Shown here: piece by piece, positions 24,629-47,891 of the stretch
Layout of the letters: every line of letters starts with the position of its first letter
Position numbering within the stretch: position 1 is the stretch's first letter
Origin: Dehalococcoidia bacterium
GTDB lineage: Bacteria; Chloroflexota; Dehalococcoidia; GIF9; UBA5629
Length of the DNA stretch: 51,596 nucleotides
Reading direction: 5' to 3'
Assembly (NCBI GenBank): GCA_041650115.1
Contig: JBAZLT010000001.1
Coordinates: forward strand, 1 to 51,596
Position numbers and translations under genes: made by a program
The notes under the pieces: model-generated
Seen by the model: the letters and a program-made list of their open reading frames with translations, nothing else
Told to the model about the DNA's origin: nothing
Databases searched by the model: none

Positions 24629-25768
24629 TTAAGTGGTCTTTGACGACCAGCGCCAGCACATCGAGCTCCAAGTGAACAAAAGGTCAGTCGTACCCGGAGT
24701 GGGCTTTAAATTACTTAATGATATTTGAGAGTTACCTACTTCTTTAATCTCCATAGCCATACCACTGGTTATGCCATGGATATGAGCTATCCCCTTCTCA
24801 TGGTTACCGCCCAAGACTTTGACTTCGCAAAATTGCGGTGGGTCAATTTTTATGGTGGTGACCTGGCCTATAATGGTTCGCGTAGGCCCTGCCCAGGAAA
24901 TGTCAGCAGCTTTTATGAAGTCGACACAGATTGGTTTGAAATTGCACCAGAGGCAGGTATTAGGACTTGGTGCCCCGTTGATGATCCCGCTATCCACTTT
25001 GTGATTATACTTGTCAAGGAGATAAAGTGCCTCATAAACGGCGTCTTGAGCGGCTTCAGGGGTAAATTTTATTTCGTGTGCTCCATCTATCAGACTCTCA
25101 ATGAGGGCTTTGGTTGGCCATTCGCCCTCGTTATCATGGATTAGTGCGGCATAAAGTAGCATCTGTCGCACATAGGGTTCGCGTATCTGCTGCGAGCCCC
25201 CATTAGGATCAAGATTCTCCATGACCAACCCTGACTTATAATCGACTATTTGAATTCCGCTGTGGTCGCGGTGTATTAAGTCAATGCGACCTATGAGTTT
25301 GCCATCGTATCCTTCGTACCAGACCTCACTTTTTAATTCACAGGCAGAAGGTACCGTGGCGCTAATACTATGTGCTTCCTTTCGCTGATTGACTATGCGT
25401 AGTGCTGTGTTGCAAGCTGCGACCATCCGTAGTGCGTATTTTGGCCATTTTACGGGTGAAGGTACAGGTTTGATAACCAAGCTTTGTAGTGACTCCACCT
25501 CTGAGACTACTAGTTCCCGCCAGCGATCAGAGATTGTTTTTTCCACTGAGTCGTCTGGGGCTAAGTCAAAATCACCGCGGCAAGCTGTCTCCAACAAGCG
25601 GTGAGAAACGGAGCCAAGTGAAGCGTAAGTTGAAGCTGTTTTTATTTCTGAGAAGGACGGGTCTAGTCCGAAAGCTACTCTTAAGAAGCATGTCCTCAAT
25701 ACTTCATTTATTGTTGGCGACACTCTTTTGAGAGGTATCGCTTCTAGCCCCGAGGGCCGCTGCTTCAT
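24629..25768 (-). CDS. RecB/Cas4/AddB-type PD-(D/E)xK nuclease with an Fe-S Cys cluster and an extra C-terminal domain
   Basis: 379 aa. Nuclease motifs are GRIDLI, IVDYKSG and QMLLYA. The Cys pattern is C27 ... C272-x2-C275-x5-C281. About 95 aa of unassigned C-terminal sequence follow. The start lies 12 nt after the stop of the giant helicase gene. Confidence 0.75.
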   Translation of the reverse strand: MKQRPSGLEAIPLKRVSPTINEVLRTCFLRVAFGLDPSFSEIKTASTYASLGSVSHRLLETACRGDFDLAPDDSVEKTISDRWRELVVSEVESLQSLVIKPVPSPVKWPKYALRMVAACNTALRIVNQRKEAHSISATVPSACELKSEVWYEGYDGKLIGRIDLIHRDHSGIQIVDYKSGLVMENLDPNGGSQQIREPYVRQMLLYAALIHDNEGEWPTKALIESLIDGAHEIKFTPEAAQDAVYEALYLLDKYNHKVDSGIINGAPSPNTCLWCNFKPICVDFIKAADISWAGPTRTIIGQVTTIKIDPPQFCEVKVLGGNHEKGIAHIHGITSGMAMEIKEVGNSQISLSNLKPTPGTTDLLFTWSSMCWRWSSKTT

Positions 25769-25780
25769 CGATTAAACAAC

Positions 25781-28700
25781 CTACCTGCTAAGCCTTTCAA
25801 TGATCTTATGTGGGTTATGGGCTAATGTCCAGATATCACACATGGCTACTGCCCGTGCTGTATCATGTGAACCGAGGCTTGCTGCCAAGTTGATAGCTTC
25901 GAGTTTAGCTCTAGCCTGTTGGTGGTTTAAAAAGTTGTCGTGTATTGTCCATAGTGGGTGTGACAAGATGGCTATCTTCTTTATGGCCGGCACGACGATA
26001 GCAGGCAACCCATTGAAAGTTGTCAGTGCTGCACCCTCTTCTTTTAAGCATTCCAAGATAGGTATTGAGAGTCCGTCAACCCTATTGAACCACCGTGAAA
26101 CGTCTAATGATAGACCTGCAGCAAGCTCACTTATATCTAACGCTAAGCGCCAATCTAAGAGGGCATGTATCTGTCTGTTCTCGTAGCTCCTAAGACAGTC
26201 GGGGCAGGAGGAATCGCATTTTGAGATGTGACGCTCTTCCAAAAATCGTTCACGGCCACTAGTTAGTAGTCTTTCTAATAGCTTATTAAAAACATGAGGG
26301 GTTCCAATATACGGGGCATAGCCGGCTCCGTTTTCTAAACTATCAGCGATGAAGATACGTCCCGTGAAGGTTTGACTGTCCTGAGCGGCGATTGGTTGAA
26401 TGCCCACCCGCAGTTCCTGGGGGTCAATATCTAGGATCTCATGGGCAGCGACTATTCGTAAATGGTGACTAAAAGAAGTCAGCGCGGACAGACCGGCTGG
26501 CATATATCCGTAGGATAGGGGTATGACTCCTAATGGTGTTAAGGTCTCCAACAGACCGGACTCATCGAGTCTCAGCTCGATACAGAGCACATCAGTCTTG
26601 GATACTGCCCCAATTGATATTCGTGTTCCGAGGGAGCTCCCAGCATTCCCGCGAAACTGCGGCGGCTCCCGGTAGAGGAGAGGATCGAGTGCTATAACAC
26701 TGTTGTCAGACTGTCTTCGCATATCATACAATGACCCGTCATTATCATTGATTACGAATATGTCTTCTTGGGTAAGCGGGAGTAACTGTACACGTTTAAT
26801 TTGGATAGGTAGAGTACTATCGCCAAGAGTTGCTATCTGCGGAAAGGAGGCGGACTGCCCTTGTTCGATTTCGTCATCGAAGTCCTCGCCTTGACTATAG
26901 TCAGTCCTGAAACCTTTTGGCTGGTAAATGGGGAATACATTTGCAAGCTGTCCACAGATCGAACAGGCAATGGATGAGACACTATTATCCTCCACCTTTC
27001 TGACTGATTGGCAGTGTGGGCACCTTGCGACGTAAAGTGGAGAACCTAAAGGATCGGCCGATATAGGCCTATTGTAACCTGGCACCCAGTTAGCTAGACC
27101 AATTGCAGTGTAGATTGTCCCGTCTTTGACCATTTCTGCTCCTGGTGCAAAAGCAGATATTGCTTGGTCGAGAGGCCGATCAGCAACCTTGCTTTCTTCA
27201 ATATCACTCATGGATTCAGGTTCGCGCCAAAAAAGAGAACGTGCTCGCGTGGGGAAACCAAACATAGGAAGTAGACCAGCGTTGGCTAGCAATTCGCTAA
27301 GATCATCGTAACTGTATACACCTTGGTTTATAGCGCCGTCGATAGCCACAGGTAAAGCATCTGTGGCCCAGTCGACTAGACTGGGTATATCTGAATAACC
27401 TGTTAGTACTGTAATTGCCTTTACGATGTCTTCAATACGCTGTCTATTCTGTTGTAGCCATCTGACAACATGTGGGCGGCGGTCCGGCCACTGGGCAGTC
27501 CGTCCGAAGTTACCGTGAGTATTGGAGTAGTCCTGCTTTGGAGTGTGCTGCCCTAGTGAACTAAATGCAATCCTAAGTATTTCCGAGGCGACCACCCGTT
27601 TGAGCACAGTCTCACTCTTGGTATCTAGGAATGGGTTGGGTGGTGGATCCCCGGTGATCCTCTTAGTATCATAGAAATAATCATCGTCGTGACTCCTATC
27701 CCTTGCCAATGTAAGTGCATAAGAGAACTGCTGTAAACGACGGCCTGCTCGTCCAACACGTTGCTGATAGTTGAACCGGTGTGGTGGCATGTTGCCCATC
27801 ACAACAGACTGAAGGTTGCCGATATCGACTCCAACCTCCATCGTTGTCGTAACGCTTAATAATTCAATGTCCTGTGCGATAGGCAGTTCGCCTGGAATAA
27901 ATGCTCCTTTAAAGCGCCTCTGTCGTTTTCTCTGCTCTTTGAGTGGCTTAGTCTGACCTGTAAGCTCTGCACTTCTTAATGCTGCGATGGGCTTTGTAGC
28001 CAGTCGTTCAAAATATCCGGCATCAGGTATTTCCTCAGAATTTTGGACAAGTCTTTCACTATTGCAGCTGGGAGAAGTGCATATCCCAGCTGAAGGGTGC
28101 AAATGACGACGGGCACAGTCCTCGCATACCCAAAATCGTCTTGTTGTGGCTGGTTGTTTGATAATTGCGAGTCCATCAAGTCGTAACATAAACTGCGAGT
28201 CCATCGCTCCCGCACTAACCAATATTTGTTTAAGCGAGTCTCTCAGATCTTGCGCTTCAACTCTATGCCTTTGTGAGACAGCGTCTACATACCGTTTTAA
28301 TGCCCGGGGCATTTCAGTTGAGTCACTAATGTAATTTGACCCTGGGTAGCGGCCTAAAAGGCCCAATATCCTGATAGAGCTTGCCACAAGTTGTGTTGCG
28401 GTGGCTTCATTGAGGCTCAAATGCCGATAATCAAGATTTGTATTAGTTCCTACCGAACCGAGCCCGAGTGACTCAAAGTCCCTTGCTGCTCGATCAAAGA
28501 GAGAATTGGTAATATCTGTTGTTAGCATTTGGCGGCGATAATTCCGTTCTTGTTGCAGGATGTTAGCGGGCACTTGCGCGTGTGTCGGCCTATTAGGCCA
28601 GTCGTATGCTTGCCACCAATCCATTTTTACTGAGCCTGCAGAGAAATTACGCATTGACGAACGTGGGCCGGCCGGGCTGAGTCCGTAGCTTAATAGCAGG

Positions 28701-31291
28701 CTCTCGACCTGCGCAATGAGAACGTGCCAGGGTAAGCGTCCTGTTCCCAATCTCTGACTTGATTCAAAGTCCTTCACTTGCGCAGACGATTCGGGGTCGT
28801 CAGGGATCTTCTCTAGTATTTTATATGCTGCCCATACTTCCGGTTTTGACGCGATGAATGGATCTACGATTGACCGTTGAATGGGGGGTAGCGTATCCCC
28901 TTTGGCGGCTGCGCGCATCAGCTCTCCGATGGGCAGCGACTGCTTCACAATTAGGTCTACAGCTTGACGTACTGTATTACGGTGGTGATTCAATGCAATA
29001 CCAGCGCTTGTTTGTGCCGCATCATCGCGGCTGTCCGTAAAAATCAAGGTCTTCGGCGATTCCTCACCTTGTCGCATATCACGTAATAATTGGTCGACAA
29101 TAACTTGACTGACCCTGGCAAAGCCAGTCCTACAACCACGTATGGGTGATCGAACTATACCCCTGAAAAATATATGTCGCTTTCGATTGGGATCCTCTTT
29201 GCCACATTGCGGACAACGCTCTGGCAATGCAGGTATGCGGAGCGCACTTGTGGCGTGTGGAACAGTTGCCATGAGCATGGTTCCCGTAGCATTCCCGTGA
29301 GCCGGACTAATCCATCCAGTCCTGTGGTCATAATAGGCTGGATAAAACTGGAATTTTGCCGCCTTTCCAGCGGACGGTTGTTGTGCATCTTCTGGTAGCC
29401 CGTGTGACCAGGGGTCATGGCTTCCGGTAGATAATATTTTTGGCCAATACCAAATATAGCGGCCATACGTCCGGTGTGAGACTAGAATTGGCTGCCCTGA
29501 CGGTGTCTCCGTATCGCTGGGGAAAAGATATCCCTGTGCGTTGCAGTCAAGCCCAGGGGAGAAGCCACCCAAATAAGCCTCGCCACATGTCTGGCAGTAC
29601 AATAGTTCCAAGATACGGCTTCCACATCCACAAGTTATTTTCGGTGCTGAATAAAGTTTGCCAATCCTGCGATGAGGTGTCTGCCATTGTAATTCCAATT
29701 TGCTACAATTTGGATTAGAACAAGCCCAGACCCCCCGTACATTCCTTATGAACATATGTACCCGGAACCGCACCATTTTGTCCTTGTCCTGTAAGCTAAG
29801 TGCAGTAAAGACTGCGTTCATTGCAAGTGTCCTGGACGGCTCGTCTGCAAAGGGTTTGTCGAAAAGACGTTCGGCAACGCTTGAGAAATGTGTAGCTCTC
29901 GTCCGACTACCTTTTAAGTCACGACAAGCCCATTCAACCGCATGAGGCAGCTGTCCCGATGTCGAATGCTTTTGGAGCTCATTAACTAGGTTTTCATCGC
30001 AGTCTACTAGTTTCCTGCCAAAGTCCAAGTAGGTTCTCTGCAAAAGAGGGCGGACATTTTGGGGTGGCTTCGGTCTGCCCTCTATCACCTCAAATGTGGA
30101 GCTAGGCACCCCGAAAAACTTCTCTCCGAAGTCTGCTATCTCTGCAGTGGTTGCTTCCAATGAAGCACTAGTTCCAATGCACCTAATTTGTGGCGAGTCG
30201 AAAGTCAGACCAAGTCGTTGGTATAGTTTTCTAAGGACGAGCGCCACTTCTGACCCTTGTGTACCACGATAACCGTGTAATTCGTCCACTACTAATGTTA
30301 GGGCATGCTCTGGATCGGCATAAAGCCAATCACGCGTTGAATTAAATATTGTGTCTTCTAAGTCGCGCATTAATATTACATTCAACATCACAGTGTTGGT
30401 AATTAGTATGTCAGGTGGGTCACCTTGCATATCCCACCGCGTCATCATCTCTGATGAATTTGGATCCGGGAATTCCCACTGGGTTGAACTTGCGACTTTC
30501 TTTTGGTCGATGGCCTGTATAAGATCATACATGTCCGTTGCCATTTCTTGTATCTCTCTGGCAACATTGGTTAATCTATTACGGTCGAGCTGTGATTTCC
30601 CTGTAGGGAGGATGTTAGTGCCAAGTGTCGAGCCGGTATATTGCCCGAAATAAATCCGGTTCCCTTGAAATATATCTTGAAACGACATATGCGCTATAGC
30701 ACTCCGCAGACGTGTAATCTGGTCTTGTACGAGTGCATTTGTTGGGTATAAGACTATCGCCCTTACGGCGGCTTTTCTTGACTCGTGCCGTCGCGTAGAT
30801 GTCCACTTCTGGGCTTTGGATTCAATTGACCACCAATGAGTCGTTTCAGGCTTTGATGCCGGACTCCATCCGGATGCCTCTAGTAAAAGGCGAGTAAGTA
30901 TGGGTAGCATAAAGGATTCGGTCTTACCTGAACCAGTACCAGCAGTGACAATTGCATGCCTCTTCGTCGTCCCAAGTACGGAAGTAATAAGGGCCTCTTC
31001 TTGGTGTGTCCGTAGCCGAAAGCTGGGGGGCTTATTGAAAATAGAATGCGATAAGGCCTCGCTTTGGGCCTCATTTAAACCAATTTTTTGCGCAACTTCA
31101 TTGATGCTATGACCATCCTCGTAGCTGGGGATGGGTTCTAGGAGGGGCTCAGTGAACAATATTCCTTGTTCAGATAGCAGTCTGTTGCGCTCAGATTGGA
31201 TCGAATCATCTCGCAGGCGGAACGCAGTATCATAGTACAAAAGGTAAGCTTGTTTAAGAGACTCATATATACCTGCAGGATTTAAGTTCAT
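25781..31291 (-). CDS. Giant SF2 (DExH) helicase with Cys4 zinc ribbons and a C-terminal DUF1998/MrfA-type zinc module (DruE-like / fused DrmA-DrmB-like)
   Basis: Motifs: Walker A VTAGTGSGKT (nt 30921-30950), LYPTNALVQDQ, DELH, TSAS, QQRVGRAGRR, and DUF1998 CDSSCPDCLRSYENRQIHALLDW (nt 26150-26218). The track ORF starts at 31336, but the ATG at 31291 has GGGAG 9 nt upstream and avoids overlap with the preceding gene. Confidence 0.8.
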   Translation of the reverse strand: MNLNPAGIYESLKQAYLLYYDTAFRLRDDSIQSERNRLLSEQGILFTEPLLEPIPSYEDGHSINEVAQKIGLNEAQSEALSHSIFNKPPSFRLRTHQEEALITSVLGTTKRHAIVTAGTGSGKTESFMLPILTRLLLEASGWSPASKPETTHWWSIESKAQKWTSTRRHESRKAAVRAIVLYPTNALVQDQITRLRSAIAHMSFQDIFQGNRIYFGQYTGSTLGTNILPTGKSQLDRNRLTNVAREIQEMATDMYDLIQAIDQKKVASSTQWEFPDPNSSEMMTRWDMQGDPPDILITNTVMLNVILMRDLEDTIFNSTRDWLYADPEHALTLVVDELHGYRGTQGSEVALVLRKLYQRLGLTFDSPQIRCIGTSASLEATTAEIADFGEKFFGVPSSTFEVIEGRPKPPQNVRPLLQRTYLDFGRKLVDCDENLVNELQKHSTSGQLPHAVEWACRDLKGSRTRATHFSSVAERLFDKPFADEPSRTLAMNAVFTALSLQDKDKMVRFRVHMFIRNVRGVWACSNPNCSKLELQWQTPHRRIGKLYSAPKITCGCGSRILELLYCQTCGEAYLGGFSPGLDCNAQGYLFPSDTETPSGQPILVSHRTYGRYIWYWPKILSTGSHDPWSHGLPEDAQQPSAGKAAKFQFYPAYYDHRTGWISPAHGNATGTMLMATVPHATSALRIPALPERCPQCGKEDPNRKRHIFFRGIVRSPIRGCRTGFARVSQVIVDQLLRDMRQGEESPKTLIFTDSRDDAAQTSAGIALNHHRNTVRQAVDLIVKQSLPIGELMRAAAKGDTLPPIQRSIVDPFIASKPEVWAAYKILEKIPDDPESSAQVKDFESSQRLGTGRLPWHVLIAQVESLLLSYGLSPAGPRSSMRNFSAGSVKMDWWQAYDWPNRPTHAQVPANILQQERNYRRQMLTTDITNSLFDRAARDFESLGLGSVGTNTNLDYRHLSLNEATATQLVASSIRILGLLGRYPGSNYISDSTEMPRALKRYVDAVSQRHRVEAQDLRDSLKQILVSAGAMDSQFMLRLDGLAIIKQPATTRRFWVCEDCARRHLHPSAGICTSPSCNSERLVQNSEEIPDAGYFERLATKPIAALRSAELTGQTKPLKEQRKRQRRFKGAFIPGELPIAQDIELLSVTTTMEVGVDIGNLQSVVMGNMPPHRFNYQQRVGRAGRRLQQFSYALTLARDRSHDDDYFYDTKRITGDPPPNPFLDTKSETVLKRVVASEILRIAFSSLGQHTPKQDYSNTHGNFGRTAQWPDRRPHVVRWLQQNRQRIEDIVKAITVLTGYSDIPSLVDWATDALPVAIDGAINQGVYSYDDLSELLANAGLLPMFGFPTRARSLFWREPESMSDIEESKVADRPLDQAISAFAPGAEMVKDGTIYTAIGLANWVPGYNRPISADPLGSPLYVARCPHCQSVRKVEDNSVSSIACSICGQLANVFPIYQPKGFRTDYSQGEDFDDEIEQGQSASFPQIATLGDSTLPIQIKRVQLLPLTQEDIFVINDNDGSLYDMRRQSDNSVIALDPLLYREPPQFRGNAGSSLGTRISIGAVSKTDVLCIELRLDESGLLETLTPLGVIPLSYGYMPAGLSALTSFSHHLRIVAAHEILDIDPQELRVGIQPIAAQDSQTFTGRIFIADSLENGAGYAPYIGTPHVFNKLLERLLTSGRERFLEERHISKCDSSCPDCLRSYENRQIHALLDWRLALDISELAAGLSLDVSRWFNRVDGLSIPILECLKEEGAALTTFNGLPAIVVPAIKKIAILSHPLWTIHDNFLNHQQARAKLEAINLAASLGSHDTARAVAMCDIWTLAHNPHKIIERLSR

Positions 31292-31316
31292 ATGGAAACA
31301 CTCCCAATTATTAATA

Positions 31317-34300
31317 TTAGCTACCATATATTGCATTCCATAGTGCCACCGCGACTTCGTCGGAAACCTGAGTATAGATGACCTGATGATTGGTCACATC
31401 AACAACGGGCGGGAGACCGCTGCAGAGGACTGCAACACGCTCGTAAAGATCGGGTAGCTGTGCCCCTAGTGGGCAAAATAGCTCCTTGCGTAGTCTTTCA
31501 TAGGCAAGAATACTGGTTTGGTTCAGCTTGGCGGCCAGGTGTTTACCGCAACGATATGATATTCGGTAGCAAGTCCCGCTATTCTGCAGATAATATTGAC
31601 GGGGAATAGATAAAGATCTGTAGAGGTTGTTGTCTTCCATAAGTTTGCTAGGTTTCCAGGTAGCTTGCGCTACATCAAATACATCTGCAACAGCGGCAGG
31701 TTGTACACAATGTGATTTTTTTAAAATCTTAAAAAGAGGTGTAAGCTGAGATGCAATAGATTCTGCCGGGTGATTAACCACTGCTACCTTTATATTAATA
31801 GCAACTTTGATTTTATCGGCGATTTCTTGGAGGTGACCTTTCTTCATGCCTTTGATGAAATAACTTGTTGGGCCAAATGAATTGTTAATAGCATCTAGCG
31901 AACCCCCGGCCTGTTTCACCTGGTCACCTAGCAACCGTAGTAATTGGTATGTCCTCCGACCTGAAAACAACGCCCGTTCAGGTTCCAATACGGCGATTAC
32001 AGGGGGTGATACTTTCCAATTCCTCGGATATACCCAGCGAAAGTCTAATTCGACGTCGATATATCCTAGAGCCGAGAAAAGTTGGATCGCATTATACGAA
32101 AATGCTGGGTCAGCGGACACTTGCCGGGCTAAGAGTTCAAATTCGGACCAGGTTCCTTCACCAAGCGTAAAGCAGGCGTCCAACAGCCCATCATAATCAT
32201 AACCAGGTATGCTATCACTGCTAGTAGCTAGTGATATCGTCTTTGAAGTATTGCGGGACGTATTGGTGCCGGGTGCCGGCGCAGGCAAAGGGCTAGCAAC
32301 AGGAAAGCCAAATTTTGTTGTTGAATTCTTTATTTTTGAATACCCAGGTGGTTTATATCCCGGGAATTCACGGGACAATCCGCAATATATACAAAAACCT
32401 CTCTGCAATTTTCGATTATCATCAACAGTTTCAATATACCAATGGTGCGCAGAGTTTAAACATACAATGCCACCTTCTAACATTCGCTTGGGACTACTTA
32501 CTGGTCCAACAGTATCTTCTTGGTCTGCTCCTATTATTGCACCAAGTTTATTGGGGAGTCTGGCTATTGTGGTGGGTAACATAATTTCTGTAGATACAAA
32601 AGCCCCCATCACCAGTATTTGCGCTTTTTCTGCGGCATCAGCTATTAATGTACCTGCAGATAATGTCCAGTTTAACAAATCCGACCTGTGCCCGAAGGTA
32701 TAGTCAATTGACCTTACGGGCGAGTCTGGAGATCTAACTTCAAAGTATCGTCGTGCGATTTCCTCGCCAAGTTTATCGCCCTCAACGGCTGCTACTGTCA
32801 GGCCATAACTGCCGTCCTTCAAGCCAAGGCTGGCAACATTGATTTCCAATGAAGTACTAGTGGATTTAAATGTATGTGCATTATGATTTGCCGTACCAGT
32901 TGTTCCCTGATCTTCGATTACTACAGATAGTTTCTTGTCCATGCTATTGATGATTAATGTTGGTAGTCGCGATGATAGCCACTGTCTTCGCCCCGGTAAT
33001 GATAGACCCCCGTTCCATTCGATACTAGAGAAGATGCTAGGGACAAGGTCAAATAAGTCCTGGTTATTTCCCACATCGGGAATACCGACGAGCTTAACGT
33101 CTTCGAACACGACCCAGTCCTGGGGAACGCCCCAATGATCCGGTACCATTCTCATTGAACCACTATCTACTTCGCTCACTACTCGTTGTACTTTTTCAGC
33201 AATGCTCTTATAGACAACCAACATACTACGATGCCCAAATTCTAGGTGTTTCTGCGACCGATAGAGCTTTTGTTCGTCATCCCATGCTAGCACTATGACT
33301 TTCTTAAGAAGCCAAATTGCTTTCAATGGCATGTCCTGGGCTTTCATTGTAATGTTGTTGACGAGAAAATCAGCTATTGAAATGTTTTGTATAGGCTCAG
33401 ACCATGGGGCAATGAGTCCACGGTGTACAGTGATCGAGTTCATATACTTCCCATCTATTGGTAGCCCGCGACTGTCTCCTTCTTCAGTGTCGTAGGTCAC
33501 CGACTGCTTGCTTTTAGGTACGTTGAAAACTATATACCATAGGAGCCTTGGTTTTGGCCCAGTCCATAATTGCGATTCTAGTACTATTTGTGTTTTGCTA
33601 ATTACTTGCAGCCCTGTTTCAGAGGTACCAGGAATAGACCCGTCCCAATTTCTTAATTCAAGGGTGGCGACTTCGGCCATTCTTCTTTTCGCCTGAGTGT
33701 TTCTCCAATTTGAATGAGCTGCCTGACTAAATGTGGATCTATGAATCCAGTCATCCATTAGCCGTTCCATATCAGCTGGTGGGATTTCTCTCCCGGGTTC
33801 TAAGCTGTACTCAGCAAAGAACTCTGGCAGCTTCTGGCGGTCACTTGCGCGCAATAAGGCCTGTGATATCCCATATCCCACATATATAAAACCAGACATA
33901 GGGCGGGCGCTAGACAACCCAAAATGCCCTCCCTGTTGTCTGAGCCATGTATCAAGTTGTTGCCATAGTTTTAAGACCCCCGCAAACCCGACTCTAATAT
34001 CTTCGCGGTGTTCCTTAGTACGATCCTTCGCTAACAGGGTTTCAGTAAGTCGATCATAGTAGTTATTGGAATGAAATTTTTCATCAGTCCTCATATATTG
34101 GGCTACAAGACAGAAAAAGGCTAGTACAGCTATGAAAGGTGGTGGGGGTTTGGCTCCTTTTGATTGCCAGTCATCCAGACGTGCTATGTGAGCATCGAGT
34201 AAGTGGCCCTTTCGTGGGTCAAGCGTACTCTTGATCACGTCAGTATAATTGGCAAGCGAAAAGGTCACCTGCAGTTCCTTGACCTCTTCATCGTCGATAT

Positions 34301-34514
34301 CGATATAAACGTATTGGCCGTCCGCTTTTGCGTTGTAATATCGGTTGAAGAGCAATTGGTTCCATGCATCGTATGCATCCCAGGAGCATGACTTGGGTGT
34401 GGGGTCGTTGCTTAAGGACCCGTCTGAGCTCTCGTGAGCTTGGTCACTGGGTTGATTATCAACGTTGTCCATGATTTTCTTTGTATACTGGTTTCTGGTG
34501 TGTCCTCGGTTCAA
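31317..34514 (-). CDS. Large protein of unknown function (candidate DruH-like partner of the helicase)
   Basis: 1065-aa uninterrupted ORF in an AT-rich island, which is unlikely by chance. It has a TTG start (alternative ATG at 34472). I recognised no catalytic motif. The stop lies 25 nt before the helicase start. Confidence 0.6.
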   Translation of the reverse strand: MNRGHTRNQYTKKIMDNVDNQPSDQAHESSDGSLSNDPTPKSCSWDAYDAWNQLLFNRYYNAKADGQYVYIDIDDEEVKELQVTFSLANYTDVIKSTLDPRKGHLLDAHIARLDDWQSKGAKPPPPFIAVLAFFCLVAQYMRTDEKFHSNNYYDRLTETLLAKDRTKEHREDIRVGFAGVLKLWQQLDTWLRQQGGHFGLSSARPMSGFIYVGYGISQALLRASDRQKLPEFFAEYSLEPGREIPPADMERLMDDWIHRSTFSQAAHSNWRNTQAKRRMAEVATLELRNWDGSIPGTSETGLQVISKTQIVLESQLWTGPKPRLLWYIVFNVPKSKQSVTYDTEEGDSRGLPIDGKYMNSITVHRGLIAPWSEPIQNISIADFLVNNITMKAQDMPLKAIWLLKKVIVLAWDDEQKLYRSQKHLEFGHRSMLVVYKSIAEKVQRVVSEVDSGSMRMVPDHWGVPQDWVVFEDVKLVGIPDVGNNQDLFDLVPSIFSSIEWNGGLSLPGRRQWLSSRLPTLIINSMDKKLSVVIEDQGTTGTANHNAHTFKSTSTSLEINVASLGLKDGSYGLTVAAVEGDKLGEEIARRYFEVRSPDSPVRSIDYTFGHRSDLLNWTLSAGTLIADAAEKAQILVMGAFVSTEIMLPTTIARLPNKLGAIIGADQEDTVGPVSSPKRMLEGGIVCLNSAHHWYIETVDDNRKLQRGFCIYCGLSREFPGYKPPGYSKIKNSTTKFGFPVASPLPAPAPGTNTSRNTSKTISLATSSDSIPGYDYDGLLDACFTLGEGTWSEFELLARQVSADPAFSYNAIQLFSALGYIDVELDFRWVYPRNWKVSPPVIAVLEPERALFSGRRTYQLLRLLGDQVKQAGGSLDAINNSFGPTSYFIKGMKKGHLQEIADKIKVAINIKVAVVNHPAESIASQLTPLFKILKKSHCVQPAAVADVFDVAQATWKPSKLMEDNNLYRSLSIPRQYYLQNSGTCYRISYRCGKHLAAKLNQTSILAYERLRKELFCPLGAQLPDLYERVAVLCSGLPPVVDVTNHQVIYTQVSDEVAVALWNAIYGS

Positions 34515-34620
34515 TCCTGATATTTAACGTTCAGCGCGGCCCCACGAACAGCAAGTACCACATGTTCACCCTTCTTATTCTCGTAAATTTGTTCTTCGGC
34601 GAACATTAGCCTATTGATTA

Positions 34621-35130
34621 TCAATAACCTATTACTAGGATCCCTTTTAAAGGTAACGCTAGTCTGCCGCTGGCATACATAGTCTCGAAAAAGGTAATAA
34701 CCTTATTATAGTCCTTGTTTGTCTCCAGATAGATGTTTCTGAGCGCAATAATTAAATAATCAATCTCGTGCATCATGCACGCTTCAAATAAGTCCTTCAG
34801 AAATTGGTTATTTGTTACACCGCGACCTGCCTCAATCTCAAGAACAGTATTTGTTTTCTTTTGTATTCCATCAGCGTTAAATGTTTTTTCTGGGATACCG
34901 TTTTTCCCAAAGAGCACAGGAACGCTTATCTTGTCTTTTGCCTTTTTACTTTTCTCAATAATAAAACCCTTTTTCTTTAAATCCCTACTTAGCTTTTCTA
35001 ACACCTGGTCGCTATTATGCGTGAAACTTTGTGAATCAATACGGTTAAGATTGCTACTGAAAACGTCAACTACGTCCTTTAAATGCGGTGGAATTTCCCG
35101 GGACTTTGGGAAATATTGCCAGTTCAACAT
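34621..35130 (-). CDS. Small PD-(D/E)xK nuclease, BamHI/BglII-like restriction-endonuclease fold (tentative)
   Basis: It has FNADG...VLEIEAGRG...FLKDLFEACMMHEIDYLIIAL, a D...ExE-type core followed by a hydrophobic strand. GGAGGT lies 4 nt before the ATG at 35130; the track ORF starts at 35154. Confidence 0.5.
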   Translation of the reverse strand: MLNWQYFPKSREIPPHLKDVVDVFSSNLNRIDSQSFTHNSDQVLEKLSRDLKKKGFIIEKSKKAKDKISVPVLFGKNGIPEKTFNADGIQKKTNTVLEIEAGRGVTNNQFLKDLFEACMMHEIDYLIIALRNIYLETNKDYNKVITFFETMYASGRLALPLKGILVIGY

Positions 35131-35144
35131 GCAGACCTCCAAAT

Positions 35145-35172
35145 CATTAACCATAAGTCAAGATGGTTAATG
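35145..35172. promoter_or_regulatory. Perfect 10-bp inverted repeat CATTAACCAT-N8-ATGGTTAATG in the divergent nuclease/methyltransferase control region
   Basis: Read directly: 35145-35154 and 35163-35172 are exact reverse complements. They sit 15 nt upstream of the preferred nuclease start. Confidence 0.4.
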
Positions 35173-35367
35173 TTACACACTACTAACCATGAACTGATCG
35201 GATTGTACACTTATGACATAAACATTTCAATTGGAGGTATTGGCCTTCAATCGTCTCTAAGCCTTTCAACGCAAGTTGCAACTCATTAAATGCCAATTGT
35301 ACCTATCTATGATATATTAATATGTGTGTAGGTGATGAGGGCATTGAGTTAGGCAGATCGGAATCTC

Positions 35368-36579
35368 ATGTGTATGAATGAAGAACAAGATCGGGATTGC
35401 TATAACATTATCTCGTTATTCAGTGGGGCCTTGGGATTAGACCTTGGTTTCGAGCGGGCGGGTTGTAACATATGTATATCGCAGGATATAGACCCCTGGT
35501 GTGTTAAGACAGCAGTTTCTAACGGTTATAAATGTATATCTGGCGATATCCGAACCCTCATCTTTAAAGACCCTGAGTGTGACTTTTTACTGAAACCAAC
35601 AGGGCTCTCAAAGAAAGATATATTTGCTGTTATAGGTGGGCCCCCGTGTCAATCATTTAGCACTGCTGGCAGAAGGCGATCGACAAATGATCCGCGAGGG
35701 GGCCTATTTGCCGACTTTTGCCATGTTGTAAGAACGATCAACCCGCGTTTCTTTGTCATGGAAAATGTCAAGGGACTATTATCAGCTGCAAGGGAACACC
35801 TACCTATAGTGCAACGTAATAGTTCCACTCAAATTTCAGATGAACAACGCCTTGGTTCAGCATTCGAAGTTGTTCTTAAAACTCTTAATGGGCTAGGGTA
35901 TAAGACTATCTATGGTGTACTTGACGCTGTGCATTACGGCGTGCCTCAGTTTAGGGAGCGGTTAATAATAATAGGCTCACGTGATGGCGAAGATATCTTT
36001 CTCCCGACCCCGACCCATTTTCACAAGCACCAGGACGCGACACATAGGTGGAAGACCTTGAGGGATGCTATTGTTGATTTGGAAGACTCGCCCGGCCCAT
36101 GTGCCAGGTTTGCAGACGACCGCATTATGTACTTAAAACTAATACCCCAAGGTGGAAATTGGAAGGATTTACCAAAAGAGATGATCCGTTCAGCGATGGG
36201 TGGCGCTTATGAAAGTGGTGGGGGAAAAGTCGGTTTCTACCGCAGATTGGACTACGATCAACCCTCCCCCACTCTTATAACTAGTCCTGCTCAAAAGGCT
36301 ACTATGCTCTGTCATCCAACGCAAAATCGGCCCCTTTCAGTGAAAGAATATGGTAGTATTCAACAATTTCCTGGGGATTGGCGTATTGAAGGGCGTATAA
36401 CTGATTGCTACAGACAGATAGGTAACGCAGTCCCGGTTGGATTAGGAAGAGCGATTGCCCAAGTGCTGTTATCGGTAGCTAAGGGTGATGCTGAGGTTAT
36501 AACTAAGCGGACGAGAGGGACTTCAGTACATAAAAAGTTAATTCAGATACAAAATAGTGTAGTGAACGGAATGATATGA
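35368..36579 (+). CDS. dcm: DNA (cytosine-5)-methyltransferase
   Basis: Motif I LFSGALGLDLGF, motif IV GGPPCQSFS, motif VI ENVKGLLS, motif VIII QFRERLIIIG, motif X QIGNAVPV. Confidence 0.92.
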   Translation: MCMNEEQDRDCYNIISLFSGALGLDLGFERAGCNICISQDIDPWCVKTAVSNGYKCISGDIRTLIFKDPECDFLLKPTGLSKKDIFAVIGGPPCQSFSTAGRRRSTNDPRGGLFADFCHVVRTINPRFFVMENVKGLLSAAREHLPIVQRNSSTQISDEQRLGSAFEVVLKTLNGLGYKTIYGVLDAVHYGVPQFRERLIIIGSRDGEDIFLPTPTHFHKHQDATHRWKTLRDAIVDLEDSPGPCARFADDRIMYLKLIPQGGNWKDLPKEMIRSAMGGAYESGGGKVGFYRRLDYDQPSPTLITSPAQKATMLCHPTQNRPLSVKEYGSIQQFPGDWRIEGRITDCYRQIGNAVPVGLGRAIAQVLLSVAKGDAEVITKRTRGTSVHKKLIQIQNSVVNGMI

Positions 36580-36591
36580 GGATAATATATT

Positions 36592-37350
36592 GTGTTAGAT
36601 CCTGTGAAAGTTGAATTAAAAATAACTGAATTGTTGGAAGACTTTTATAAGAGGCGAATCGCAACACTCTCAAAGTTAAATTTGCGAGAAACACTAAAGA
36701 GGAAAAATCCATATCTTTTCCGTGCGATTGGCACTCAACAAGCAAATGAAATTGTTGAGGCACTATTGCAAGCATATATGTCCAGTAGTGATGAGGGTAT
36801 ATTCGGCAATGTTTTTTTTGAGCCGCTAGCTAAATTTGTATCTGGGGGTGTGGTAAACGATGCAGAAGGTATTGATATCTCCATAGAGAAAAATCACACA
36901 TACACAGCTATCGCAGTGAAAAGTGGCACACATATCTTTAATTCTACGAGTAAGAAAAAGCAGGAAGATTATTTCAAGATACTTGAGAACCGACTGCGGA
37001 AATTAAGAAAGCACTTTGACCCGGTAGTAGGTTATTGCTATGGCCGCAAAGGAATAAGTAAAGTTGGACGTCCCAAGGCATGGAGAGAAATTGCTGGGCA
37101 GGCATTCTGGCAAGAACTGACCGGTGACAAAGACTTTTATCTAAAGATAATACGTTTAATGAAGGAAAAACCGAAGAATCATTTACCTGAATACAAAATT
37201 GAGTGGGACATGGCTGTAAATAGGTTTACTCGCGATTTCATCAAAGATTTTTGTTTTGGAGATGGTCGAATAGACTGGGAGAAAATCGCTGTATTGAACT
37301 CTGGTATTAAAAAAAAGAGAACTTCCAAAAAGAAAAAAAGCAGAAAATAG
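36592..37350 (+). CDS. Type II restriction endonuclease, Eco47II/TdeIII-like (tentative family), with a Lys-rich tail
   Basis: 252 aa with a GTG start, 12 nt after the methyltransferase stop. Motifs are KRKNPYLFRA and GIDISIEK...AIAVKSGTHIFNS (D...ExK plus the KSG..NS pattern recalled for this family). The C-terminus is IKKKRTSKKKKSRK. Confidence 0.6.
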   Translation: MLDPVKVELKITELLEDFYKRRIATLSKLNLRETLKRKNPYLFRAIGTQQANEIVEALLQAYMSSSDEGIFGNVFFEPLAKFVSGGVVNDAEGIDISIEKNHTYTAIAVKSGTHIFNSTSKKKQEDYFKILENRLRKLRKHFDPVVGYCYGRKGISKVGRPKAWREIAGQAFWQELTGDKDFYLKIIRLMKEKPKNHLPEYKIEWDMAVNRFTRDFIKDFCFGDGRIDWEKIAVLNSGIKKKRTSKKKKSRK

Positions 37351-37356
37351 TAATAC

Positions 37357-46117: not shown

Positions 46118-46127
46118 ACATACCTCC

Positions 46128-47141: not shown

Positions 47142-47164
47142 ATTTATCCTCGCTTTAGATAACT

Positions 47165-47821: not shown

Positions 47822-47891
47822 TTTGTTATCCACTACCACAATGTGGTACAAGATAACAGATTAAAAAGGGTTTGTCAACTACCTTAAACTA

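What the first reader, a model, noticed from the sequence alone, without database searches (positions are those of the whole stretch)
24629..34514. Helicase-DUF1998 defence operon that fits neither Druantia III nor DISARM, with a Cas4/AddB-type Fe-S nuclease as third gene
Seen in the sequence: three minus-strand genes are packed with 25-nt and 12-nt gaps, each gap carrying its own SD.
- Gene 1 is a 1065-aa protein with no motif I can assign.
- Gene 2 is a ~1836-aa DExH helicase. Its motifs are VTAGTGSGKT, DELH, TSAS and QQRVGRAGRR. It carries several Cys4 ribbons and ends in a DUF1998-type zinc module (CDSSCPDCLRSYENRQIHALLDW).
- Gene 3 is a 379-aa PD-(D/E)xK nuclease. Its motifs are RIDLI, VDYK and QMLLY. 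It has the C...CxxCxxxxxC iron-sulfur signature and an unassigned ~95-aa tail.

Established knowledge:
- A giant helicase-DUF1998 protein plus a ~1000-aa unknown partner defines Druantia type III (DruH/DruE).
- Helicase + DUF1998 + PLD nuclease + C5 methyltransferase defines DISARM class 2.

Inference: this locus fuses the helicase and DUF1998 parts as in DruE. However, it adds a nuclease in the position where DISARM has DrmC, using a Cas4-like fold instead of PLD. It also sits back-to-back with a C5 methyltransferase. It may be an undescribed variant or hybrid of these systems.
Basis: partly seen in the sequence, partly recalled or inferred. Interest (0 to 1): 0.88.

Follow-up and report, generated by a model that had tools for sequence, protein, structure and literature searches.

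The report
Druantia II/IV operon with DruK nuclease
This is a real anti-phage defence operon, but an ordinary member of the already catalogued Druantia type II/IV family: a giant helicase, its large partner protein, and an optional Cas4-like iron-sulfur nuclease that a defence-gene database already models as "DruK".

Summary
The three minus-strand genes and all quoted motifs are present. PADLOC profiles place all three in Druantia:
- The helicase is DruE2/DruE4 (1552/1494 bits, full length).
- The big "unknown" is long-form DruF2 (406 bits), effectively a DruF+DruL fusion.
- The nuclease is DruK (108 bits).

In 84 related loci from at least five phyla, DruF abuts DruE in nearly all. DruK abuts DruE in 24 of 76 assessable loci. 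A C5 methyltransferase lies within 1.5 kb in 48 of 84.

New details:
- The nuclease has four invariant Fe-S cysteines, intact RecB-type motifs, a Cas4-like predicted fold and an OB-like C-terminal tail.
- druF's "1065-aa" start is an artefact. An ancestral 5' module is broken by a TGA and a frameshift.
- A fourth co-directional gene (169-177 aa, restriction-endonuclease-like) precedes druF.
- The methyltransferase heads its own EcoO109I-type restriction operon, which also encodes a MutY/Nth-like glycosylase.

Type II/IV Druantia and DruK have no experimental characterisation in the library searched. Modest interest.

The parts
24629..25768 (-). druK: Cas4/AddB-type PD-(D/E)xK nuclease with a [4Fe-4S]-type Cys signature, 379 aa
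   Evidence: PADLOC DruK PDLC00060 at 1.8e-31 and Pfam PDDEXK_1 at 1.2e-17. Invariant C27/C272/C275/C281, D163, K178, Q202 and Y206 in 25 homologues. AF2 pLDDT 88; best Foldseek matches are ACE1, Cas4, MGME1 and AddAB.
24914..25723 (-). DruK nuclease core (aa 16-285), including CxxCx5C at 24926-24955 and the first cluster Cys (C27) at 25688-25690
   Evidence: Pfam and PADLOC alignment ranges; motif coordinates; invariant columns.
24650..24880 (-). DruK C-terminal tail (aa 297-373): predicted OB-like beta-barrel (b1-b2-b3-helix-b4-b5), probably ssDNA-binding
   Evidence: AF2 secondary structure, with 10-residue-block pLDDT of 81-94. Weak local Foldseek matches to HIN and telomere-end-binding OB folds (E about 0.02-0.05, probability 0.85-0.97). 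The tail is conserved across the family. The function is inferred.
25781..31291 (-). druE: YprA/MrfA-family SF2 helicase with Zn ribbons, an MZB/DUF1998 domain and a conserved C-terminal domain, 1836 aa (the ORF extends to 31336)
   Evidence: PADLOC DruE2 1552 bits and DruE4 1494 bits, both full length. Pfam DEAD, Helicase_C and MZB. More than 3000 homologues. PDB 9wae_A at 9e-154 and 9tu7_Y at 5e-44. Motifs located.
31317..34472 (-). druF (long form, equivalent to a DruF+DruL fusion), main ORF of 1051 aa from ATG 34472
   Evidence: PADLOC DruF2 long models at 406 and 384 bits over aa 44-1058. The N-terminal part also hits DruF4, and aa 814-1062 hit DruL4. It lies directly upstream of druE in 77 of 80 loci. 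AF2 (pLDDT 69): helical N-domain, FN3/Ig-like beta region, conserved C/H/C/C site at 32382-32462, and an alpha/beta C-domain.
34511..34606 (-). Disrupted ancestral 5' end of druF: ATG 34606, in-frame TGA 34513..34511; rejoining the main frame then needs a 1-nt shift at the A-run 34478..34475
   Evidence: Six-frame translation and alignment to homologues. The repaired N-terminus aligns to P0151 residues 1-112 at 41% identity, E=4e-27. Sequence shown. The module is specific to this clade.
34621..35154 (-). orf177 (169 aa from ATG 35130, which has GGAGG upstream): a small protein with a conserved D...ExE motif. It is a possible restriction-endonuclease-like fourth gene. Its stop lies 14 nt before the ancestral druF ATG.
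   Evidence: Sequence. Homologue at the same position in L026, 34% identity, E=3e-34. A family of 740 clusters. Conserved D87/E98/E100/D113. Weak precomputed PF26497 (Halo_RE) hit in a relative that sits near a C5 methylase.
35202..35230 (-). Best sigma-70-like promoter match in the region (TTGAAA-17-TACAAT), upstream of orf177
   Evidence: The number of such sites is not above shuffled expectation, so this is weak evidence.
35368..36579 (+). C5 cytosine DNA methyltransferase (DruM-like), first gene of the divergent operon
   Evidence: Pfam DNA_methylase at 4e-62. PADLOC MTase_II 312 bits and DruM2 278 bits. Motifs FSGALGLD, PPCQSFS and ENVKGL are intact. A C5 MTase is found in 65 of 84 related loci.
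36592..37350 (+). EcoO109I-family type II restriction endonuclease, 12 nt after the MTase
   Evidence: Pfam RE_EcoO109I at 6.9e-60, covering 5-196 of 198 profile positions. Present only in L001 among the related loci.
37357..38028 (+). HhH-GPD (MutY/Nth-family) DNA glycosylase. It is probably a T:G mismatch repair enzyme that counters 5mC deamination.
   Evidence: Pfam HhH-GPD. PADLOC 'type II nicking endonuclease' at 2.4e-34. NCBIfam mutY 141 bits, below the family cut-off. Homologues accompany the MTase in L001, L013, L016 and L081-L083 among others. The role is inferred.

Best explanation
**Identity (well supported)**
- The locus is a member of the Druantia type II/IV family of anti-phage systems, carried on a horizontally acquired low-GC island.
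- Its core is the pair DruF (here the long form, in which PADLOC's separate DruF and DruL are one polypeptide) and DruE (a giant YprA-like SF2 helicase with an MZB/DUF1998 zinc module).
- The third gene is the facultative accessory nuclease that PADLOC calls DruK.
- The divergent C5 methyltransferase corresponds to the DruM-type partner found next to most such operons. In this genome it also belongs to an EcoO109I-type restriction operon with a 5mC-deamination repair glycosylase.

**Mechanism (inferred by analogy with Druantia III, DISARM and AddAB/Cas4)**
1. Cytosine-5 methylation marks host DNA as self.
2. DruE, helped or licensed by DruF, loads at ssDNA or ssDNA-duplex junctions of invading or replicating phage DNA and unwinds 3'->5' using ATP.
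3. DruK holds the displaced strand or end with its OB-like tail and degrades it with its Fe-S-stabilised RecB-type nuclease site. This would supply a nuclease activity in trans, which type III DruE carries in cis as a PLD domain.

Where DruK is absent, other genes (often an SF1 UvrD/Nhi-like helicase) or host nucleases would fill that role.
For: **Identity**
- PADLOC full-length hits are DruE2 1552 bits, DruF2 406 bits and DruK 108 bits.
- Sister-locus proteins match DruK at 455 bits, DruL4 at 312 bits and DruM2 at 864 bits.

**Conserved synteny**
- DruF abuts DruE in 77 of 80 loci spanning Chloroflexota, Actinomycetota, Proteobacteria, Bacillota and Bacteroidia.
- DruK abuts or overlaps the druE stop in 24 of 76 assessable loci, including all four members of the window's own clade.
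- A C5 MTase occurs in 65 of 84 loci. It is within 300 nt of the block in 26 and within 1.5 kb in 48. The commonest arrangement is upstream and divergent, as in the window.
- A ~150-aa family sits next to the MTases in 30 loci, and the one representative tested is Vsr. An HhH-GPD glycosylase accompanies the MTase in 8 of the 80 survey loci plus the window and L081-L083. Both suggest that methylation is active.

**Enzyme competence**
- The DruE helicase motifs are intact.
- DruK has four invariant Cys and intact D...D-x-K...QxxxY motifs.
- Its predicted fold best matches ACE1, Cas4, MGME1 and AddAB. It also has an OB-like tail.

**Literature**
- Type III DruE is a 3'->5' helicase that acts on ssDNA or 5'-overhang junctions together with a partner exonuclease (10.64898/2026.05.13.724313; 10.64898/2026.05.13.724758).
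- Type I/II DruE has a C-terminal Vsr-like domain that is predicted to be inactive (PMC12458937).
- Types I and II carry methyltransferase modules (10.64898/2026.05.12.722862).

**Island**
- GC is 0.42-0.49 against 0.56-0.62 in the flanks.
Against: - There is no experiment on any type II/IV Druantia system or on DruK in the library searched. Every mechanistic step is by analogy.
- DruG, required by the published type II definition, is not detected. An adjacent MTase conflicts with the published description of type IV. The locus therefore fits neither text definition exactly.
- Here the MTase is physically part of a complete R-M operon, so it may serve only that system.
- DruK is absent from about two-thirds of related loci, so it cannot be the essential effector.
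- DruE's conserved C-terminal residues are equally conserved with and without DruK. This gives no support to the idea that DruK compensates for a DruE-specific defect.
- DruF has no confident fold assignment (pLDDT 69; no PDB match with E<0.001).
- druF carries 5' lesions in this genome.
Confidence: 0.6

Rival explanations
1. One reading: an undescribed variant or hybrid between Druantia III and DISARM class 2, in which a Cas4-like nuclease replaces the PLD nuclease DrmC.
For: - The gene content (fused helicase-DUF1998, a large partner, a nuclease, a C5 MTase) superficially mixes features of both systems.
- The MTase scores about as well on DrmMII (277 bits) as on DruM2 (278 bits).
- The published subtype definitions do not list the nuclease (PMC8565338).
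Against: - There are no DruH, DrmB, DrmC or DrmE hits. DrmA gives only 52-bit local matches, against 1552 bits for DruE2.
- All three genes match existing PADLOC Druantia models.
- The same F-E-K architecture occurs in 24 of 76 loci. PADLOC's DruK and DruM2 models fit those loci at 455 and 864 bits.
Confidence: 0.05
2. Two independent neighbours. The C5 MTase belongs only to the EcoO109I-type R-M plus glycosylase operon. The DruF-DruE-DruK operon works without any methylation mark, recognising DNA structure as Druantia III does.
For: - M, R and the glycosylase form a tight operon with 12-nt and 6-nt gaps.
- Druantia III does not modify host DNA (10.64898/2026.05.12.722862).
- 19 of 84 related loci have no MTase within 10 kb.
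- MTase position, orientation and sequence vary. The window's MTase is only 38% identical to those of its closest relatives, whose DruE is 55-61% identical.
Against: - 65 of 84 loci have a C5 MTase. In 26 it lies within 300 nt of the operon, far more than expected for a gene family with a few copies per genome.
- An EcoO109I-type endonuclease was detected in only 1 of the 80 survey loci, L001. Other endonuclease types do occur: an MvaI/BcnI-type family is present in 8 loci.
- PADLOC treats these MTases as DruM2.
Confidence: 0.25
3. DruK is not the degradative effector. It is an end-processing or licensing nuclease that trims DNA ends to create the ssDNA-duplex junction on which DruE loads. This would be functionally analogous to the exonuclease DruH of type III.
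For: - Cas4, MGME1 and AddB-type enzymes are ssDNA end-processing exonucleases, and these are the best fold matches.
- In type III, a partner exonuclease generates the substrate that recruits DruE (10.64898/2026.05.13.724313).
- The OB-like tail suits ssDNA end binding.
Against: - It is dispensable in two-thirds of related operons. DruF, not DruK, occupies the universal partner position.
- There is no biochemical data.
Confidence: 0.2
4. The system is decaying or inactive in this genome because druF has lost its proper 5' end.
For: An in-frame TGA and a frameshift lie within the first ~45 codons of the ancestral druF reading frame.
Against: - The lost module is a clade-specific extension that about 75 other DruF homologues lack.
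- An ATG (34472) lies just after the lesion, and the remaining 1051 codons, druE and druK are all intact and align end-to-end with homologues.
- The lesions could be MAG consensus errors, since one lies in a homopolymer.
Confidence: 0.15

Closest known systems
Druantia type II (DruM-DruF-DruG-DruE; Doron et al. 2018 as summarised in PMC8565338 and PMC10273834; 'Type IV CoCoNuT' of PMC12458937)
   Same: - Best PADLOC matches are to the type II models: DruE2 1552 bits and long DruF2 406 bits.
- The adjacent C5 MTase matches DruM2 at 278 bits.
- MTase linkage is general across the clade.
   Different: - No DruG is detectable.
- A Cas4-like nuclease (DruK) is present that the published definition does not mention.
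- The MTase here scores slightly better as a generic type II MTase and sits in an R-M operon.
- PADLOC found type II only in Proteobacteria, whereas this is a Dehalococcoidia MAG.
Druantia type IV (DruE-DruF-DruL; PADLOC, PMC8565338)
   Same: - DruE4 scores 1494 bits over the full length.
- The N-terminal part matches DruF4 (156 bits) and the C-terminal ~250 aa match DruL4 (78-82 bits).
- Split DruF+DruL loci (L074-L079) belong to the same DruE tree.
   Different: - DruF and DruL are one polypeptide here.
- Type IV is described as lacking DruM, whereas an MTase is adjacent here. One is in fact also adjacent in the split Streptomyces loci.
- DruK is additional.
Druantia type III (DruH-DruE), the only mechanistically studied type
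   Same: - A giant YprA-like helicase is paired with a partner of about 1000-1100 aa.
- The partner's predicted central region is FN3/Ig-like (weak), and DruH is reported to have tandem Ig-like folds.
- Helicase and nuclease logic are coupled in both.
   Different: - There is no DruH sequence match, and DruE3 models match only partially (392 bits or less).
- Type III DruE carries its own active PLD nuclease, and type III has no MTase.
DISARM class 2 (DrmA, DrmB, DrmC, DrmMII, DrmE)
   Same: It uses YprA-family helicase chemistry with a DUF1998/MZB module, a C5 MTase as self-marker and a separate nuclease gene.
   Different: - Helicase and DUF1998 are fused here.
- There are no DrmB, DrmC or DrmE matches.
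- The nuclease has a PD-(D/E)xK/Cas4 fold, not PLD.
Cas4 / AddB / ACE1 family of Fe-S PD-(D/E)xK nucleases
   Same: - It has the four-Cys C...CxxCx5C signature and RecB motifs.
- Fold matches are ACE1 (8e-08), SSO0001 Cas4, Cas4-Cas1-Cas2, AddAB and MGME1.
   Different: - It falls below the family thresholds for true Cas4 (TIGR00372: 20.5 bits against a cut-off of 65).
- It has an extra helical N-terminal part and an OB-like C-terminal domain.
- Its genomic partner is DruE, not CRISPR, Argonaute or AddA.

Membership tests
Druantia type II | DruE-type giant helicase with DUF1998/MZB | tested here: met
   PADLOC DruE2 PDLC00015 at 1552 bits, covering 3-1881 of 1887 profile positions. Pfam DEAD, Helicase_C and MZB.
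Druantia type II | DruF | tested here: met
   DruF2 long models PDLC00023 and PDLC00016 at 406 and 384 bits over aa 44-1058. It abuts druE, as in 77 of 80 loci.
Druantia type II | DruM cytosine methylase | tested here: inconclusive
   The adjacent C5 MTase hits DruM2 at 278 bits, but generic MTase_II scores 312 bits and the gene heads an R-M operon. Across the clade an MTase is linked in 65 of 84 loci.
Druantia type II | DruG | tested here: not met
   None of the seven island proteins hits DruG at E<=0.01. The DruF C-terminal third and four of the ~650-aa downstream genes from other loci do not at E<=1; two further such genes (L017, L020) gave none at E<=0.001.
Druantia type IV (PADLOC) | DruE4 + DruF4 + DruL4 | tested here: met
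   DruE4 at 1494 bits. DruF4 at 156 bits (aa 43-476). DruL4 at 78-82 bits (aa 814-1062), but fused to DruF in one ORF.
Druantia type IV (PADLOC) | Absence of DruM and DruG | tested here: not met
   DruG is absent, but a DruM2-matching C5 MTase lies 854 nt from the operon block.
Druantia type III | DruH partner and DruE3 with a C-terminal PLD nuclease | tested here: not met
   There is no DruH hit. DruE3 models score 392 bits or less and only partially. No PLD domain appears in Pfam.
DISARM class 2 | Separate DrmA helicase and DrmB (DUF1998), DrmC PLD nuclease, DrmE, DrmMII | tested here: not met
   Only local DrmA hits (52 bits) to the helicase C-domain. No DrmB, DrmC or DrmE. The MTase hits DrmMII at 277 bits, which is non-specific.
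PADLOC DruK (Druantia-associated PD-(D/E)XK nuclease) | Match to the DruK profile, and position abutting druE | tested here: met
   PDLC00060 at 1.8e-31, covering 2-307 of 347 profile positions. The gap after druE is 12 nt. The same family abuts druE in 24 of 76 loci, and the L053 member scores 455 bits. How PADLOC's system rules use DruK could not be checked here.
Cas4/AddB-type Fe-S nuclease | Four cluster cysteines (C...CxxCx5C) and RecB motifs D, D-x-K, QxxxY | tested here: met
   C27, C272, C275, C281, D163, K178, Q202 and Y206 are invariant, and D176 is at least 90% conserved, in 25 sequences. Fold matches. Actual Fe-S binding is not testable here.
CRISPR Cas4 proper | Score above the TIGR00372 cut-off, and CRISPR-cas context | tested here: not met
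   20.5 bits against a cut-off of 65. The scanned flanking genes are Druantia and R-M genes, not cas genes; CRISPR arrays were not searched for.
YprA/MrfA helicase family | SF2 RecA1/RecA2 core plus a C-terminal MZB/DUF1998 Zn module | tested here: met
   Pfam DEAD at 5e-15, Helicase_C at 1e-07 and MZB at 4e-06 (above the gathering score). PDB YprA 6znp at 8.8e-08.

The most novel reading that the evidence does not exclude
The DruK-bearing operons (C5 MTase + deamination-repair enzyme + long DruF + DruE + DruK) could be a functionally distinct, still undescribed Druantia subtype. In it, a Cas4-like Fe-S nuclease with an OB-fold domain docks on DruE to form a methylation-gated, AddAB/RecBCD-like helicase-nuclease that shreds unmethylated invader DNA. 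This would explain how type II/IV DruE, whose own C-terminal nuclease-like domain is predicted to be inactive, achieves DNA destruction.
Probability: 0.25. Interest if true: 0.55.

Novelty: new member of a known kind. Interest (0 to 1): 0.3.

Why it matters
Types II and IV make up about 40% of Druantia loci in one recent survey. No mechanistic study of them turned up in the library searched, where all the recent structures and biochemistry concern type III. This locus and its 80-odd relatives show three things:
- The published II/IV subtype definitions blur into one continuum: DruF may be fused or split, an MTase is usually present, and the gene slot after druE is variable.
- About a third of the operons recruit a Cas4-like Fe-S nuclease with an OB-like domain.
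- C5 methylation, together with T:G repair functions, is tightly linked to the operon.

That is useful for anyone choosing a type II/IV system to characterise, and for refining the detection rules of defence-finder tools. It does not reveal a new kind of system.

Tried and rejected
- **DISARM or Druantia III membership:** rejected by the PADLOC scores.
- **DruK compensating a DruE-specific defect:** DruE C-terminal conservation was compared in 25 loci with DruK and 55 without. There was no difference, so this gives no support.
- **DruG:** searched for in the DruF C-terminal third and in the ~650-aa genes downstream of druE in other loci. None was found. Those genes are SF1 UvrD/Nhi/NERD-UvrD-like helicases.
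- **DruF fold identification:** the AF2 model has pLDDT 69. No PDB sequence hit and no Foldseek hit with E<0.001, only weak FN3/Ig-like local matches. I could not confirm the 'inactivated CnuB/McrB-like' assignment mentioned in PMC12458937.
- **orf177 identification:** no hit for the window protein or the family profile in Pfam, NCBIfam, PADLOC or PDB.
- **Island borders:** no tRNA and no direct repeat of 11 nt or more at the borders.
- **Promoter and terminator scans:** counts not above shuffled expectation.
- **Plasmid collection:** only one weak, IS-disrupted hit, in Meiothermus.
- **Doron et al. 2018:** could not be read.
- **PADLOC supplements:** contain no DruK or DruG text.
- **One literature search was wasted:** the term 'DruG' matched 'drug'.
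- **PDB 9wae:** its identity could not be traced.

Full report
**1. Observation**

The window is a 51.6-kb contig of a Dehalococcoidia MAG, according to the source names attached to the identical proteins.

Between about 24.0 and 38.5 kb the G+C content falls to 0.42-0.49, against 0.56-0.62 on both sides. That is a horizontally acquired island. It has no tRNA and no border repeats of 11 nt or more.

On the minus strand lie three tightly packed ORFs:
- 24629..25768, 379 aa.
- 25781..31291, 1836 aa from the second ATG. PADLOC profiles and homologues align from about residue 3 of this form.
- 31317..34514.

GGGAG lies 9 nt before the druE ATG. Pfam finds DEAD, Helicase_C and MZB/DUF1998 in the helicase and PDDEXK_1 in the small protein.

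The observation needs four corrections:
- The start of gene 1 is wrong (section 5).
- Gene 1 is assignable to a family (section 2).
- There is a fourth co-directional ORF upstream (section 5).
- The methyltransferase heads its own three-gene operon (section 4).

**2. What the genes are**

PADLOC-DB profiles place all three genes in Druantia:
- The helicase matches DruE2 (1552 bits) and DruE4 (1494 bits) end to end. It matches DruE1 at 595 bits, DruE3 at 392 bits or less and only partially, and DrmA at 52 bits.
- The 1065-aa 'unknown' matches the long DruF2 models over aa 44-1058 (406 and 384 bits).
  - Its first ~430 residues also match DruF4.
  - Its last ~250 residues match DruL4 (78-82 bits).
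  - It is therefore equivalent to a DruF+DruL fusion.
- The nuclease matches 'DruK, PD-(D/E)XK nuclease superfamily' (PDLC00060, 1.8e-31), ahead of the Cas4 models.
- There are no DruH, DruG, DrmB, DrmC or DrmE hits.

The published definitions are:
- Type IV is DruE, DruF and DruL, described as lacking DruM and DruG (PMC8565338).

No paper in the library mentions DruK together with Druantia.

**3. Is the architecture conserved?**

An alignment of 17 DruE homologues was used to scan one genome per GTDB species. It returned 80 loci with DruE 32-43% identical to the window's. They come from Chloroflexota, Actinomycetota, Alpha- and Gammaproteobacteria, Bacillota and Bacteroidia. Three closer metagenomic relatives (DruE 55-61% identical) were added.

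Iterated profiles built from the window's proteins were run against six-frame ORFs of these loci. The results:
- **DruF.**
  - A homologue lies directly upstream of druE in 77 of 80 loci. The other three are truncated contigs.
  - It is usually a single ORF of 985-1250 aa.
  - In eight loci (L003, L074-L080) it is split into about 695 and 325 aa.
  - The small piece in L075 is DruL4 at 312 bits, so those loci are PADLOC's type IV.
- **DruK.**
  - A homologue abuts or overlaps the druE stop in 22 of the 80 loci.
  - Counting only loci with at least 1.5 kb downstream of druE, and including the window and its three close relatives, the figure is 24 of 76 (32%; 20 of 72 among the species representatives alone).
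  - The L053 (Cellulomonas) copy scores 455 bits, full length, on PADLOC's DruK model.
- **The slot after druE is variable.**
  - In 17 loci, mostly proteobacterial, it holds a ~650-aa SF1 UvrD/Nhi/NERD-UvrD-like helicase.
  - In many loci it holds nothing.
- **Distribution on the tree.** On a neighbour-joining tree of 80 DruE sequences, DruK is patchy but clustered.
  - It is present throughout the window's own clade, in other Dehalococcoidia, in a large actinobacterial clade, and in single Paenibacillus and Chloroflexia loci.
  - It is a recurrent, facultative accessory gene, not a chance neighbour and not a core gene.

**4. The methyltransferase**

In the window, three plus-strand genes follow one another with gaps of 12 and 6 nt:
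- The C5 MTase (35368..36579), with catalytic motifs intact.
- An EcoO109I-family restriction endonuclease (Pfam 6.9e-60).
- A MutY/Nth-family HhH-GPD glycosylase, which PADLOC's REBASE-derived models call a 'type II nicking endonuclease'. From general knowledge of Mig-type T:G glycosylases and Vsr, it most likely repairs 5mC deamination.

This looks like an ordinary type II R-M unit. However, C5 MTases accompany the DruF-DruE block far too often for coincidence:
- One is present in 65 of 84 loci.
- It is within 300 nt of the block in 26, within 1.5 kb in 48 and within 3 kb in 62.
- The most frequent arrangement is upstream and divergent, as in the window.

Further points:
- A ~150-aa family sits next to the MTase in 30 loci. 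The one representative tested is Vsr.
- An HhH-GPD glycosylase accompanies the MTase in eight of the 80 survey loci, plus the window and L081-L083.
- An EcoO109I-type endonuclease was detected only in L001.
- PADLOC's DruM2 models fit these MTases: 864 bits full length for L043 (an M-F-E-K locus) and 500 bits for L017.
- Even the Streptomyces 'type IV' loci have an MTase 168 nt upstream.

I conclude that a C5 MTase is a usual, positionally flexible partner of this Druantia clade. In the window it is shared with, or borrowed from, an R-M operon. Whether Druantia reads the mark is untested.

**5. New anatomical details**

*(a) DruK*
- In 25 sequences, C27, C272, C275 and C281 are invariant. These form the Cas4/AddB C...CxxCx5C signature.
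- D163, K178, Q202, Y206, H56, E60 and E148 are also invariant, and D176 is at least 90% conserved.
- The AF2 model (pLDDT 88.3) best matches Argonaute-associated Cas4-family ACE1 (8e-08), then SSO0001 Cas4, MGME1, Cas4-Cas1-Cas2, AddAB, RecE and RecB.
- The previously unassigned tail (aa 297-373) is predicted as b1-b2-b3-helix-b4-b5, with block pLDDT of 81-94. It has weak local matches to HIN and telomere-end-binding OB folds. It is probably an OB-like ssDNA-binding domain, and it is conserved across the family.

*(b) DruF*
- The model is mediocre (pLDDT 69) and has no significant PDB match.
- Its layout is a helical N-domain (aa 30-275), a beta-rich region with weak FN3/Ig-like matches (aa 292-580), a poorly predicted (low-pLDDT) stretch containing an invariant C671/H676/C694/C697 site, and an alpha/beta C-domain (aa 760-1049), which is the DruL-like part.
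- DruH of type III is also reported to have central tandem Ig-like repeats. This parallel is suggestive only.

*(c) druF 5' end*
- Homologues of the window's clade begin with a ~45-aa module (MF..G.TYENR.GRY.VLA...VRYEDGT...).
- In the window this module is encoded from ATG 34606 but is cut by an in-frame TGA at 34513..34511. It then needs a 1-nt shift in the A-run 34478..34475 to join the main frame.
- The conceptually repaired N-terminus aligns colinearly to P0151 residues 1-112 (41% identity, E=4e-27).
- The module is specific to this clade and is absent from about 75 other DruF homologues. Its loss need not inactivate the protein.
- The lesions might also be MAG consensus errors.

*(d) orf177 (34621..35130/35154)*
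- It ends 14 nt before the ancestral druF ATG and has GGAGG before its second ATG.
- It has a full-length homologue at the same position in the proteobacterial locus L026 (34% identity, E=3e-34).
- It belongs to a family of 740 clusters of standalone ~170-aa proteins.
- The family has conserved D87, E98-x-E100 and D113, and nothing known matches the family profile.
- One member has a weak precomputed Halo_RE (PF26497) hit and sits near a C5 methylase.
- It is plausibly a small restriction-endonuclease-like protein that is co-transcribed with druF. This is inference.

**6. Mechanism**

*Shown here*
- Family membership, conserved synteny, intact catalytic motifs and predicted folds.

*Taken from the literature on type III*
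- DruE is an ATP-dependent 3'->5' helicase that engages ssDNA or 5'-overhang junctions.
- It works with a partner exonuclease, DruH, and degrades DNA through its own PLD domain (10.64898/2026.05.13.724313; 10.64898/2026.05.13.724758).
- Type I/II DruE instead ends in a Vsr-like domain predicted to be inactive (PMC12458937).
- Types I and II carry methyltransferase modules, and type I modifies host DNA (10.64898/2026.05.12.722862).

*Inferred for this locus*
- 5mC marks self DNA.
- DruF and DruE recognise and unwind unmethylated invader DNA.
- DruK binds the displaced strand through its OB-like domain and degrades it.

One test of a corollary gave no support. The conserved residues of DruE's C-terminal domain (D1719, H1778-P-L-W, D1819) are equally conserved whether or not DruK is present.

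An alternative role for DruK is end processing that licenses DruE loading. The data do not exclude this.

**7. Comparison and verdict**

The locus is a member of the Druantia II/IV continuum:
- By profile scores it is closest to type II (DruE2, long DruF2, DruM2-like), but it lacks DruG.
- By domain content it matches type IV (DruF plus DruL, fused), but it has an MTase.
- It carries the accessory DruK, which PADLOC already models.
- It is neither Druantia III nor DISARM.

The inference of an undescribed hybrid is not supported. The novelty is that of a new, divergent member (Dehalococcoidia; DruK only 108 bits on the model) of a known kind. Types II/IV and DruK have no experimental characterisation in the library searched, which leaves room for the mechanistic hypothesis above. 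Interest is modest.

Noticed in passing
window 34511-34606 (minus strand): The ancestral 5' end of druF is broken by an in-frame TGA and a 1-nt frameshift in an A-run. This could be real decay or a MAG consensus error.
   Followed up: yes
window 34621-35154 (minus strand); L026 6365-6904: A small conserved ORF (169-177 aa; D...ExE motif; a family of about 740 clusters) lies directly upstream of druF and divergent from a C5 MTase in two distant loci. It is possibly a restriction-endonuclease-like protein, and no family name is available for it.
   Followed up: partly
window 25781-31336: The NCBI protein for druE (P0001, 'helicase-related protein') is only 1635 aa and covers only 89% of the 1836-aa query (about 200 residues fewer). 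The ORF itself is continuous and aligns to homologues from residue 1, so this looks like a gene-call problem (probably start-site) in the public record.
   Followed up: partly
window 35368-38028 (plus strand): A complete operon of a C5 MTase, an EcoO109I-family endonuclease and a MutY/Nth-like HhH-GPD glycosylase. The same three genes plus DruF-DruE-DruK recur in Dehalococcoidia locus L001 (3629-16494), with different gene orientations.
   Followed up: partly
window 44541-47851: A second low-GC patch (GC about 0.43) encodes DUF1254/PsbP-like, DUF1214 and P63C-domain proteins and an IS1595-type transposase zinc-ribbon fragment. It is probably another mobile insertion.
   Followed up: partly
L017 15118-17313, L020, L022, L025, L026, L028, L030, L032, L033, L044, L047, L051, L056, L058, L066 and others: In 17 loci, mostly proteobacterial, the slot after druE holds a ~650-aa SF1 helicase with weak UvrD/Nhi/NERD-UvrD/GajB similarity instead of DruK. 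It matches no PADLOC Druantia model and may be an unnamed alternative accessory gene.
   Followed up: partly
L074-L079 (Streptomyces), e.g. L075 5478-6725 and 15570-17117: Loci that match PADLOC type IV (split DruF + DruL4) nevertheless have a C5 MTase 168 nt upstream, although type IV is described as lacking DruM. In at least three of them (L075, L076, L079) a ~515-aa gene follows druE; the L075 copy, the only one scanned, is a PtuA/PDC-M01A-like ATPase.
   Followed up: partly
L049 19002-24146: A second DruE-like helicase (1714 aa) lies about 1 kb downstream of the MTase that follows a complete DruF-DruE-DruK operon in a Mycobacteriaceae MAG. These may be tandem Druantia-like systems.
   Followed up: no
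L084 (Meiothermus taiwanensis plasmid pMtWR-220) 6518-14343: A DEAD/DEAH helicase is followed by an unannotated DruK-like reading frame and a gene annotated 'Druantia anti-phage system protein DruA'. The locus is flanked by transposases and has no DruF, so it looks IS-disrupted.
   Followed up: no
PDB 9wae_A: A solved 1970-aa 'Helicase' (7 entries) matches the window's DruE at 9e-154, much better than the type III DruE 9tu7 (5e-44). I could not find out which Druantia type or organism it represents. No DruF-like chain is in the PDB at sequence level.
   Followed up: partly
L024 10303-11158; L062 9992-15361; L018 4659-9914: Several related loci carry fragmented druK or druE reading frames. These may be frameshifts or pseudogenes, which would suggest frequent decay of these systems, or they may be assembly errors.
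   Followed up: no
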